Assembly: GCA_964016885.1 (NCBI GenBank)
Contig: OZ024755.1
Coordinates: 34,534,001 to 34,598,000 of the forward strand
Reading direction: 5' to 3'
Origin: Eledone cirrhosa
Lineage: Eukaryota
Length of the DNA: 64,000 nt
The position numbers were made by a program, and so were the translations under genes. Every line of letters begins with the position of its first letter. Position 1 is the first letter of the stretch. The notes under the pieces are model-generated. The model had not been told where the DNA came from. It was given only the letters and a program-made list of their open reading frames with translations, and did not search any database. Shown here in pieces: positions 3,578 through 47,999 of the stretch.

Positions 3578-3925
3578 TCTACATATAATATAAAAGATTG
3601 GAACTTCCATTATCCTTTTGAGAAATGTGGAACAACCACGTCTATGCAATGATACACATTTTACAGTCAGGCAGAAGATGAACCATCTCCTAGAGGTCAC
3701 TATTCTAGGTGGGAGCACCTAGAATTGTTCATATACTATGCACAAACGGTACAGCGAAGAATCTGGTATATCTGGAAGATTTTTTTTTACTGTTTTTTGT
3801 ATCACACAGACTCCATAGACTCACCTCATACTGTAACCAGACAAACATCCAATACAGTCATTTTCTCTTTTACCTGTCTTCTCTTATCATCTGTTTACCC
3901 GGGTGAAGCTGGGTACGTCAGCTAG
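3578..3925 (+). mobile_element. Non-autonomous Helitron carrying a helicase C-terminal remnant
   Basis: 5' end A|TCTACATATAATATAAAAG. Internal SRVGAPR..ILCTNGTAKNLVY resembles a Helitron helicase C-terminus. Subterminal hairpin TACCCGG-gtgaag-CTGGGTA (3896-3915), CTAG at 3922-3925, then T (A|T target). Confidence 0.85.
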
Positions 3926-4286
3926 TTTTAGTTAATGTTAATATTGAATGTTTTAAGTTAGTTAAAGCAATGGAATGTAAATTAGTCTTATTGTATTCTT
4001 ATTCATGGACTATAGTTGTTCAACAAGTAGATTTTCCAACGGTTAATTTCCGGAAGCGAGTAAGGGGAGCTAATGCGTAAGCGGAGGTAACTAGCTAATT
4101 AAATTCAGTTATTTAAATTCTTTGCTCTAATACACATTATAATGGGATACAATTGAATCTCTATTACATAATACTATATATTTATACTTGATTTTAAATA
4201 CAGTATATTTCACTATAATACATTAAAGGTCTCTTTAGATTGTTGTCTATTCATTACTGGACAAGATATATGTTATGGAAAATTGC

Positions 4287-5303
4287 ATATACAATATATA
4301 TACATAAACATATATATATACATATATATACACATACAAATATATATATACATATATATACACATACAAATATATATACACATACAAATATATAGATACA
4401 TATATATACACATACAAATATATATATACATATATATACACATACAAATATATATATACATATATATACACATACAAATATATATATACATATATATACA
4501 CATACAAATATATATATATACATATATATATACACATATACATATATATACACATATATACATATATATATATACACACATATATACATATACATATACA
4601 CATACATGTATATATACATATATATATACACATACATGTATATACACACATATATACATATACATGTATATGTACATATATATACATATATACATACATA
4701 TATACATATATACATATACATGTATATATACATATACACATATACATGTATATATACATATACATGTATATATACATATGCATGTATATATACATATACA
4801 TGTATATATATACATACATGTATATATATATACATACATGTATATATACATATGCATGTATATATACATATACATGTATATATATACATACATGTATATA
4901 TATACATACATGTATATATACATATACATGTATATATACATATACATGTATATATACATATACATGTATATATGTATATATACATATACATACACATATA
5001 CATGTATATATACATATATATACACATACATGTATATATACATATACATGTATATATACATATACATGTATATATGTATATATACATATACATACACATA
5101 TACATGTATATATACATATATATACACATACATGTATATATACATACATGTATATATACATACATGTATATATACATATATATACACATACATGTATATA
5201 TACATATATATACACATACATGTATATATACATATATATACACATACATGTATATATACATATATATACACATACATGTATATATACATATATATACACA
5301 TAC

Positions 5304-44714: not shown

Positions 44715-45300
44715 AATAATGGAATTATTGTGTACAGTGCTCAGGTGCACTACAACTCATCAAAGGTGGCTGTATAGTACATAGAATAATTATTTCTACT
44801 TTTGGCACAAGGCCAGCAATTATCCCAGTGCATTACTGGTACTTTATTTTATTGACCCCATAAGGATGAAAGGCAAAGTTAACTTTGGCAGAATTTGAAC
44901 TCAGATCGTAAAGGGCTGTAACTCTATGCTGCAAAGCATGGCATCCAACCCTCTACCGATACTGGAAAGTGAACAGTGTATGAGTTATGTTATACATGTG
45001 TAGTATGGAGGTGAGGGGGGGGGGGGGGGGTATGGATACCAAGTGTAGTGTTGGTGAATTTCAGGAAGCATGGAAGTTTTAAAGGATGCAGTGTCTCGGC
45101 AGCTAACAACTGACGCAGGGAGTTTGTTCCATGCTTCAGCAATTCTGAGCATGAACAAATATTTCCGCCAATCATGGGAGCTGTACTGTTTTCTGACTTT
45201 GTAGGCAACCTCACGTGTGTTAGACACATGGAATTAAAAAAAGGTGCTCAGGGTTGTTGTTGGTAAGATGGTTAATAATTTTGTGGGTGTTTCTGATACA
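44715..45300 (-). mobile_element. CR1-like LINE 3' end interrupted by SINE-B (44785-44965)
   Basis: RKYLFMLRIAEAWNKLPASVVSCRDTASFK is a typical CR1 ORF2 C-terminus. Confidence 0.75.
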
Positions 45301-45344
45301 CCTATATAGAGTGCCAGATTTAGAACAAATGTCCACCTTCCAAA

Positions 45345-45415
45345 TATTTTATCTGATGAAAACACAAATGTTATTGCATGATGATATTTGTTTTTGAAAT
45401 GCGCATAATAAAATA
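45345..45415 (+). ncRNA. Minimal type I hammerhead ribozyme (best-preserved copy)
   Basis: TATTTTAT-CTGATGA(45353-59)-15-bp stem II-GAAA(45396-99)-TGCGCA-TA-ATAAAATA. Perfect 8-bp stem I and palindromic stem III ATGCGCAT. Confidence 0.92.
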
Positions 45416-45562
45416 CATGGAACTCTTTTAACCATCTTTTGATCTTATATATTATGTATACTCCAGTCCTACAAACTGTAGAGTGCTTCTTATCCGATAT
45501 CTGCATTGCTTTATTGTACTACAATAAAACTCACCTCCTACATATATATATATATATATTAT

Positions 45563-46123
45563 ATATAATATAAAACGAAAAATCAGTGATGCATCTGGAC
45601 TCAGTTTATTGTGTGTTACAATTGTTTCACCGGCAGATTGCTCGAGACAGGATCCTTGTATGGATCTGCTGATTCTAGATCTGCAGATTCTTCGGAGACA
45701 TGCAATACTTTTGGAACAAACTTTCTCCCTGGGGTGTTAGCTTCAAAAACCATCTTCCTCTCCTGTCTTGCTATTGGCTGTTGTTTTTCTACGTCATCAT
45801 AAATTCTGGTCAATATTTGCTGCCAAACTGGCCATCAGAGAAAAACAACAGCCAATAGCAAGACAGGAGGGGAAGATGTTTTTTGAAGCTAACACCCCAG
45901 TGAGAAAGTTTGTTCCGAAAGTATTGCATGTGTCCAAAGAATCTGCAGATCCATAAAATGATCCTGTCTCAAGCTGTCCACCGGCGAAACAATTGTAACA
46001 CACAATAAACTGAGTCCAGATGCATCACTGATTTTTCGTTTTATATTATATCACACTCTGCTCTATAAAAACATAGAGTGCTCAATTGGCATACCGCCTA
46101 TGGAAGCATCATAGCTACCATTA
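45563..46123 (+). mobile_element. Asymmetric fold-back element, family H3 (U4C-core hammerhead in each arm)
   Basis: Arms 45563-45790 and 45839-46051, 48-nt spacer, ~70-bp unpaired tail. TGTGT-CC(G/A)AAGA...GAAAC-AATT-GTA-ACACA-c-AATAAA. Confidence 0.75.
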
Positions 46124-46124
46124 A

Positions 46125-46159
<35 letters not shown>

Positions 46160-46629
46160 GATAGATATACATACATATATATATAACAGAATACATATCA
46201 GAAGTATTTACAAACCAGATGCATGGATTAGAATATTAAGCTAGAAGTGAATTATATTTTTCATCAGCAAAAGCTATGCTTGTCCCAGCTAAAATAGATA
46301 AAGATGATCATAGTAGACACTAGATTTAGCTAACTGAAGTAGGATAAACATATTTGGTGCAACTTTAAGATATAGATACCAAAAATATACTTTTCGAGAA
46401 TAGAAATTCTATTCAAATTTTTTTTCAATTTTTACTTACTTTAATATATTTTTATATATCTATTTAGATTAGAAGATAAGCAAGGTTTAAATTTGGTTTA
46501 TGATTTGACGTGACTTCTTGTCAAAAACAATCCTGGTGGATTGAAGAAAAAAATATAATATTATTCCTGTCTCAAACTTGAAATGAGTGTCATATTAATA
46601 CACAAACACACATGCACATACAACACCTT

Positions 46630-46661
<32 letters not shown>

Positions 46662-47357
46662 CATCATCATCATCATCGTTTAATGTCCACCTTCCACGCT
46701 TGCATGGGTTTGGACAGGAATTTTCCCACTTGAGGCAAGATTGGTTGTCCTGCTCATATAGGACTCTCTGGCGGGTTTTCTACGGATGGATGCCCTTCCT
46801 AACACCAAACACGTTTACAGTGTGGAACTGGGAGGTTTTTACCGTGTTACATACACGGCCACATTACAGCGTGGACTGTGTGTTTTTTTGTTGTGACACC
46901 TACACGACCTCATTTGTTTCGGCCTGGATGTTGTGGTACCACCATAACTTTACATCGAAAGGGTTGGTGTGGATGGGGTGGGGGTAGTGGGACGGGGGTG
47001 TATTTTTGTTAAGAGGTGCCTACCGACTGTAGGTTTCGCTTTGTACTTAGGCAGTCTTCTGTATTACTGTGTAGCGCCAAAGATCTCGATCCAGTGACAT
47101 TGTCTTGGAGAGGTGTAAGTGTGTGAGGTCGGAATTTATCAAGTCGTCCCAGGTTTTTCTGGGTCTGCCTACTCCGTGGCTACCGTCTATTTTTATCGCC
47201 CTGCACTTTTTTATGCAACTGTCGTCTTTCATGCGCATCACGTGACCATACCAACGTAGTCTTCTCTCGAGTAAACAACATCTGATCCCTCTTATTCCTA
47301 ATTTCTCCCTTACTTCATTTATGCTTTGCCGTTCACATATATTACTATTACACATCC
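46662..47357 (-). mobile_element. RTE LINE 3' end with long 3' UTR
   Basis: ERRLRWYGHVMRM, GRPRKTW, DRDLWR, and an (ATG)n tail. Confidence 0.92.
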
Positions 47358-47513: not shown

Positions 47514-47999
47514 AATTGAGAACACAAACGCAACCCAGGAATCGAGCCCACAACATTATGATCATAAGTCCAACACCTTTACCACTAGGCCACGTGCCTC
47601 CACATATATATATACACATACATATATTTATATATATGCATACATACATGTATATATATATATATATCCAGGGAGTGTAACTTGGAGTTACTGTAGGTTC
47701 ACCCGGGTGAGCACTCGTTTAGGTTCACTTCAATGTCGAGGTGTAGAGCTAGACAGAGTGTATTATAGTGAAATAAGATAACAAGGACGATTGGTTACTC
47801 CTTCATTACGTTTATTGGTGAAACATGCGTGACCTTGCCAGGATTTGAGCTCAGACCATAAAGGAATGTAACTCTATGCTGCAAAGCATGACATCTGACC
47901 CTCTACTGATACTGCCAATCCAACGAATTAACACCATCTGATATGAACACAAAAATTTGTATCTTTAGCTGTTTAAAGAATAAAAAAGATAAAGATCCC

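What the first reader, a model, noticed from the sequence alone, without database searches (positions are those of the whole stretch)
45563..46123. Apparent 490-bp MITE is a ribozyme-bearing asymmetric fold-back
Seen: ~220-bp arms with a 48-nt loop look like a MITE. However, each arm contains a hammerhead-like motif: TGTGT-CCAAAGA...GAAAC-AATT-GTA-ACACA-c-AATAAA in the right arm, and core CCGAAGA in the left. Only the right arm continues into a 70-nt tail with GAGTGCT. Both arms have C at core position 4. Inference: the element arose by retrotransposition-linked 5' inversion, not cut-and-paste, and may carry a U4C core variant. It lies ~150 bp from the canonical hammerhead at 45353.
Basis: partly seen in the sequence, partly recalled or inferred. 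Interest (0 to 1): 0.7.

Follow-up and report, generated by a model that had tools for sequence, protein, structure and literature searches.

The report
Penelope stub with U4C hammerhead
What looks like a small cut-and-paste DNA transposon is a short two-armed leftover of a Penelope-type jumping gene, a known layout; its one unusual trait is a self-cutting RNA motif with a changed core letter that the family kept through many rounds of spreading, and whether it still cuts is untested.

Summary
Not a MITE. 45563-46123 is a 5'-truncated insertion of a Hydra-clade Penelope-like retroelement: a tail-less inverted arm (276 nt) joined to a sense arm (213 nt) plus a 72-nt tail, in (TA)n. Of 31 two-armed insertions examined, 28 have exactly one tail, and spans run from 218 to 6557 bp. 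Longer copies lead into an RT and GIY-YIG ORF with Hydra motifs. This layout is published for PLEs. The '48-nt loop' is ordinary left-arm sequence. The hammerhead is a real homologue: 7 of 30 pairs covary across 8 subfamily consensuses, N7 is free and the other core letters are fixed. C4 is the family state (487 versus 40 matches; 7 of 8 subfamilies). Stem II is about 60 nt and mostly lacks G10.1-C11.1. Both window copies are damaged, the right one in its core (G5A, 16-nt deletion). Copies do not break preferentially at the predicted cut (17 versus 19 and 14). The neighbour hammerhead belongs to an unrelated, younger family sharing the (TA)n.

The parts
45563..45838 (-). Tail-less inverted arm: 5'-truncated copy of the element's 3' end (pLTR), 276 nt, starting at the fixed internal site; includes the '48-nt loop' 45791-45838
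45612..45700 (-). Hammerhead homologue of the left arm: stem I 45700-45696 / 45616-45612 (one mismatch), core CCGAAGA 45695-45689 (C4 at 45694), long stem II, GAAAC-AATT-GTA 45628-45617, predicted cut between 45617 and 45616
45838..45839 (.). Inner junction of the two arms; blunt, no shared or added base against the family sequence
   Evidence: read by eye
45839..46051 (+). Sense arm: 5'-truncated pLTR, 213 nt (228 template positions)
45929..46002 (+). Broken hammerhead homologue of the right arm: G5A in the core, 16-nt deletion in stem II between two CAGAT repeats, stem III palindrome intact, predicted cut between 45997 and 45998
46052..46123 (+). 72-nt one-sided tail; in full-length copies it is the first part of the element body, ending about 55 nt before the ATG
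45541..45562 (.). (TA)n target remnant, left
46124..46185 (.). (CA)n then (TA)n, right; a target-site duplication cannot be read
45342..45540 (+). Separate, younger mini-family: canonical-core hammerhead 45347-45413, arm end 45455, about 85-nt tail; no sequence similarity to the focal element

Best explanation
The element is a short insertion of a Hydra-clade Penelope-like retroelement with one inverted tail-less arm and one tailed arm, most likely made when both ends of a cut in a (TA)n tract primed reverse transcription at the element's two fixed start sites, 72 nt apart, and the two short cDNAs were joined. Shown: family membership, fixed outer ends, one-sided tail, variable junction, link to RT and endonuclease, conserved hammerhead fold, C4 as family state. 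Inferred: double priming; that the TA- and CA-rich patches at both start sites help priming; that the U4C hammerhead is a slow, dimer- or protein-dependent ribozyme whose cutting is not needed to make insertions. The window's two ribozyme copies are likely inactive.
For: Layout: of 138 arm ends, 65 continue into the tail, 66 end at the same place in (TA)n, 3 other, 4 without anchor; 28 of 31 two-armed insertions have one tail, 2 have two, 1 none; spans 218-6557 bp. Arm, tail, RT, endonuclease and arm in order in L053, L059, L071, L075; ORF starts after the tail. Hydra motifs RMRW, DKT, CxCx5C, no CCHH, CxxC and CxH match PMC8557442 section 11. Either arm can be the longer, 16 versus 11 of 27 by a rough split, against a simple fold-back of one strand. 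Two RT start sites that define the tail, extension of both strands, and insertion without ribozyme activity were shown in vitro for another PLE (PMC11167929). Hammerhead: 7 of 30 pairs change on both sides across 8 consensuses, slid controls 0-1, random re-pairing mean 0.77, maximum 5 in 10,000; on 48 natural copies 7 pairs, 8 of 500 shuffles as high. Position 7 takes A, C or G while C3, G5, A6, G8, G12-A15.1, U16.1, A17 are fixed. Stem III is the 8-nt palindrome expected for dimers. Breakpoints are not enriched at the cut: 17 versus 19 and 14.
Against: No cleavage or priming assay. The structure was drawn from these sequences, and subfamilies are related, so the covariation controls are lenient. 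The 37 nt behind the ribozyme are as conserved as the core (5 variable), so core conservation is not unique in the region. Loci were recruited by similarity or exact patterns, not at random. The arm split is wrong for at least L030 and L034, and 4 of the 31 pairs were left out. Pfam matches are below curated cut-offs (GIY-YIG E 0.0035); clade assignment rests on motifs, not on a tree with reference PLEs. The strict fixation of the other core letters fits real selection on cutting better than full dispensability.
Confidence: 0.9

Rival explanations
1. A MITE or fold-back DNA transposon with 220-bp terminal inverted repeats and a TA target duplication; the tail is flanking DNA and the ribozyme motif is chance.
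For: Perfect outer 65 nt in both arms, AT-rich ends in TA repeats.
Against: Tail is family sequence in 65 of 138 arm ends and one-sided in 28 of 31 insertions; length varies 30-fold; arms run on into an RT and endonuclease ORF; covariation in the ribozyme.
Confidence: 0.01
2. Same element, but the inverted arm arises by self-priming: one cDNA folds back and copies itself (proposed in PMC3846280), or by L1-type twin priming.
For: Both arms of the window copy share four variants against the subfamily majority; some short copies join through palindromes or short homologies.
Against: Either arm can carry the unpaired middle; the arms duplicate template instead of abutting; the window junction is blunt; the inverted arm starts at a fixed site. 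Shared variants also fit two RNAs from one source locus.
Confidence: 0.15
3. On the ribozyme: U4C is a fully working core variant, rescued by the long stem II or by tertiary contacts, and cutting is needed in the element's cycle.
For: All other core letters fixed and N7 free over 8 subfamilies; a viroid U4C variant keeps enough activity in vivo (PMC3088659, passage); mismatched 10.1-11.1 pairs occur in published Hydra hammerheads.
Against: The same passage says U4C lowers activity considerably in vitro; G10.1-C11.1 is missing in 7 of 8 subfamilies; subfamily C1 spread with an extra G in the core; no breakpoint excess at the cut.
Confidence: 0.3
4. On the ribozyme: catalytically dead since the U4C change; the fold is kept as a binding or folding signal for the element's protein.
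For: C4 sits in a CpG that decays to the canonical U at about the CpG rate (29 of 516 outside subfamily C2; CpG sites 8.4% versus 2.9% others), yet 7 of 8 subfamilies kept C; stems covary; no cut-site footprint.
Against: A dead core should drift at G5, A6, G8, A13, A14; it did not. One subfamily (C2) carries U4.
Confidence: 0.25

Closest known systems
Hydra clade of C-terminal EN+ Penelope-like elements (Craig et al. 2021, PMC8557442; passages, section 11 and part 2 of 59 of the supplement read)
   Same: RW, DKT and CxCx5C motifs, no CCHH, (TA)n target, type I hammerhead near the 3' end with short palindromic stem III.
   Different: All Hydra hammerheads in their File S2 have CTGANGA and stems II of 3-7 bp; here C4 and about 60 nt. 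Element is longer (low-complexity insert in the ORF, 0.8-2.4 kb 3' UTR). Five motif strings of this family were not found in their supplement.
Inverted pLTR with one-sided tail in EN+ PLEs (PMC8557442, PMC3846280; passages read)
   Same: Inverted 5'-truncated copy, tail at one end, tail equals the start of the element body.
   Different: Tail is 72 nt, not 30-40; it lies in the 5' UTR, not in the ORF.
Poseidon of Anolis, two internal RT start sites (PMC11167929; passages and section 3 part 2 read)
   Same: Tail lies between two fixed ends; AC-rich patch at the outer end; ribozyme cutting not visible in insertions.
   Different: There the start site was called not homologous to the target; here both sites are TA/CA-rich like the (TA)n target (priming by homology is my inference).
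Minimal hammerheads of PLEs (Cervera and de la Pena 2014, PMC4209133; parts 1-2 of 4 read)
   Same: Stem I of 4-5 bp, enlarged stem II, palindromic stem III.
   Different: They list U3-A8 as core variant and G10.1-C11.1 as highly conserved; U4C is not mentioned in the parts read.
U4C viroid hammerhead variant (as cited in Perreault et al. 2011, PMC3088659, passage; the original paper was not held)
   Same: Same core change.
   Different: A sequence variant of a viroid there; here the master state of a retroelement family with at least 487 genomic matches.

Membership tests
MITE | Near-constant length | tested here: not met
   218-6557 bp in 31 insertions
MITE | Symmetric ends | tested here: not met
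   28 of 31 have a tail on one side
MITE | Target-site duplication | tested here: inconclusive
   Ends lie in (TA)n or (CA)n
EN+ Penelope-like element | RT followed by GIY-YIG endonuclease, linked to these ends | tested here: met
   Pfam GIY-YIG E 0.0035, below the curated cut-off
EN+ Penelope-like element | pLTR in partial tandem ahead of the ORF | tested here: met
   L053, L059, L071, L075
EN+ Penelope-like element | Inverted truncated copy and one-sided tail | tested here: met
Hydra clade | RWK and DKT motifs in RT | tested here: met
   RMRWR (K to R) and DKT in L057, L059, L060 translations
Hydra clade | CxCx5C linker, no CCHH, CxxC and CxH around E and N | tested here: met
Hydra clade | (TA)n insertion | tested here: met
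   66 of 69 anchored tail-less ends
Hydra clade | Placement in an RT tree with reference PLEs | not tested
Type I hammerhead ribozyme | Stems I, II, III around the core | tested here: met
Type I hammerhead ribozyme | Canonical core CUGANGA | tested here: not met
   C4 in 7 of 8 subfamilies; right window arm also G5A
Type I hammerhead ribozyme | G10.1-C11.1 pair | tested here: not met
   Present only in subfamily D (38 matches)
Type I hammerhead ribozyme | Self-cleavage after H17 | not testable with these tools
   No assay; no breakpoint excess at the site
Non-LTR retrozyme | Head-to-tail tandem monomers of a non-coding unit, each with a hammerhead | tested here: not met
   No monomer arrays in the loci mapped; parent is coding

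The most novel reading that the evidence does not exclude
A retroelement lineage has run through at least seven waves of spreading on a U4C hammerhead with a 60-nt stem II, although a hypermutable one-step route back to U4 was open. It is either a working core variant that standard searches miss, or a hammerhead fold kept for a job other than cutting. Its subfamilies form a natural mutational series (U4 or C4, G-C or mismatch at 10.1-11.1, extra core G) for testing what PLE ribozymes are for.
Probability: 0.4. Interest if true: 0.55.

Novelty: new variant of a known kind. Interest (0 to 1): 0.3.

Why it matters
Practically, short PLE stubs in TA repeats mimic MITEs and can be misfiled; the one-sided tail tells them apart. 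Biologically, the role of hammerheads in Penelope-like elements is open (PMC8557442, PMC11167929). A family whose masters carry U4C, with sister subfamilies that differ at single core positions, offers a ready set of natural variants to test whether cutting matters, and shows that CUGANGA searches undercount these ribozymes.

Tried and rejected
Rfam on the whole window (best 150 of 307 rows seen) and on 45300-46150: no hammerhead. Single-sequence folding: not above shuffles for 6 of 6 sequences, one of which (L027) was cut at the wrong coordinates. The RT in L043 first looked like the parent ORF; it is a nested insertion, absent from L031, and was dropped. My first clade guess, Neptune or Nematis, was dropped. 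Two copies with CTGATGA in subfamily D were considered as a canonical ancestor; 2 of 38 fits CpG decay better, not proven. Relatives with a short stem II: 5 matches, all internal deletions. Rooting the subfamily tree failed: chain E/D-B-A-A2-C0-C1-C2, unrooted, divergences 3.5-6% (C0 10%, n=4), so the direction of U4/C4 change is not settled. Cut-site footprint: negative; about 11 of the 17 test matches are true breakpoints, the rest small indels, and two pairs are duplicates (by eye). Twin hairpins behind the two ends: a shared GCATCA in subfamily A, not kept in C, D, E tails (by eye). Papers not held: Lunse et al. on PLE hammerhead variants and the viroid U4C paper; either may bear on novelty. 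Searches for U4C in print: (25 of 211 listed) gave only PMC3088659; one search gave no description of this family. Repbase and Dfam could not be checked.

Full report
Observation. The window lies in an unnamed 3.0-Gb animal genome; an earlier scan note calls it octopus-like, which I did not test.

The family. A search of the own genome gave 95 matches from 40 scored of 3709 candidates. Copies match positions 1-276 in one piece, so the 'loop' is left-arm sequence. Every arm starts at the same base; outside it lies either (TA)n or the 72-nt tail. Over 138 arm ends: 65 tail, 66 (TA)n, 3 other, 4 without anchor. Of 31 inward-facing pairs, 28 have one tail, 2 two, 1 none, and spans are 218-6557 bp. 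Loci were recruited by similarity and exact patterns, so these are not genome-wide proportions. A MITE is excluded. A target duplication cannot be read in (TA)n.

The parent. In L036, L041 and L044 the inverted arm runs on into an endonuclease ORF (Pfam GIY-YIG E 0.0035, below cut-off). A search with it had 915 candidates, 40 scored. L053, L059, L071 and L075 show arm, tail, RT and endonuclease in order; L071 also holds the 3' arm within the fetched stretch. The tail is the start of the body, followed by a short CA/TA patch and, about 55 nt on, the ATG. The protein has RMRW, DKT, CxCx5C, no CCHH, CxxC and CxH, the features given for the Hydra clade (PMC8557442 section 11). An earlier scan note pointed me to that clade; no tree with reference proteins was made.

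How the stub was made. Inverted truncated copies, one-sided tails and (TA)n targets are described for PLEs. In vitro, a Poseidon protein extends both DNA strands from two internal RNA sites that bound the tail. The window fits this: one cDNA from the tail end (285 nt in the genome), one from the tail start (276 nt), joined bluntly, with 228 template positions duplicated. Either arm can be the longer: 16 versus 11 of 27 by a rough split that is wrong for at least two loci, with clear cases both ways. This argues against a plain fold-back and against L1 twin priming, without excluding the first. Double priming is inferred, not shown. The window arms differ 4-5% from the subfamily majority.

The hammerhead. 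Rfam misses it and single copies do not fold above shuffles. Comparison carries the case. I sorted 127 arms into 8 subfamilies by diagnostic letters and a tree, after moving or dropping 8 mis-sorted arms. Across their majority sequences 7 of 30 pairs change on both sides; slid partners give 0-1, random re-pairing 0.77 on average and at most 5 in 10,000. On 48 natural copies, 89.7% of cells pair and 7 pairs change on both sides, with 8 of 500 shuffles as high. The structure was drawn from these sequences and they are related, so the controls are lenient. Position 7 takes A, C or G; C3, G5, A6, G8, G12, A13, A14, A15.1, U16.1 and A17 are fixed, against 17 of 38 variable columns upstream and 27 of 62 in stem II, but only 5 of 37 downstream. 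Stem III is an 8-nt palindrome, as expected for dimer-forming PLE hammerheads.

U4C. Exact patterns gave 487 matches with C4 and 40 with U4; subfamily D 35 of 38 C4; subfamily E 29 of 35. Of the 40, 11 belong to subfamily C2, against 1 in the 100 listed C4 matches, so C2 is mostly U4; my C2 sample was recruited by the U4 pattern. The remaining U4 copies fit CpG decay (8.4% at 14 CpG sites, 2.9% elsewhere). G10.1-C11.1 exists only in D; C1 has an extra G in the core. The tree is unrooted, so direction is open. Published Hydra hammerheads all have CTGANGA and short stems II. U4C is known from a viroid, with much lower activity in vitro but enough in vivo (passage); searches showed no retroelement case, but the paper on PLE hammerhead variants was not held.

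Does it cut? If cut RNA were copied, 5' ends should pile up after A17. Matched patterns gave 17 at the site, 19 six bases upstream and 14 twelve bases downstream; about 11 of the 17 are true breakpoints. There is no footprint, as for the Anolis element. My reading is a slow or conditional ribozyme not needed for insertion (0.45), before a fully working variant (0.3) or a dead fold (0.25). In the window the right copy has G5A and a 16-nt deletion; the left keeps the core but has a stem I mismatch.

The neighbour. 45342-45540 is another family without similarity to this one: 21 candidates, the best copy 100% identical over 199 nt, mostly as about 310-bp fold-backs with its own one-sided tail. 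It is younger and shares only the (TA)n.

Verdict. What is new is a family-wide U4C core with a long covarying stem II and a natural series of core variants. Interest 0.3.

Noticed in passing
window 45342-45540; L124-L142: A very young mini-family with a canonical-core hammerhead forms about 310-bp fold-backs whose arms nearly always meet at an AT palindrome just before stem I: a near-fixed inversion point, so a much better MITE mimic than the focal element. The window copy lacks the left arm.
   Followed up: partly
window 45040-45341, minus strand: Reads by eye like the 3' end of a LINE reverse transcriptase gene (recalled likeness, not tested); it abuts the mini-element head to head.
   Followed up: no
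window 45328-45342 and 46682-46696: Identical 15-nt direct repeat on either side of both insertions; the right one is part of a common repeat, so chance or a templated patch rather than a target duplication.
   Followed up: no
L060 about 3920-4420, L059, L057: The ORF carries an in-frame low-complexity insert of about 150 aa behind the RT thumb, absent from a 40%-identical relative; it recalls the inserts reported in rotifer Penelope elements.
   Followed up: no
L031 2334-3557, L043 4000-5180: The 3' UTR holds a 23-nt tandem repeat that is expanded to about 50 copies in some insertions and short in others; 3' UTR length varies 0.8-2.4 kb between subfamilies.
   Followed up: partly
L042, L043, L045, L046, L055, L145, L155 and others: Many other PLE families with about 30-45% identical endonucleases lie nested in or beside these copies, in TA repeats.
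   Followed up: no
window 44882-44964 and 47832-47914: Two 83-nt copies, 86% identical, of a common interspersed repeat.
   Followed up: no
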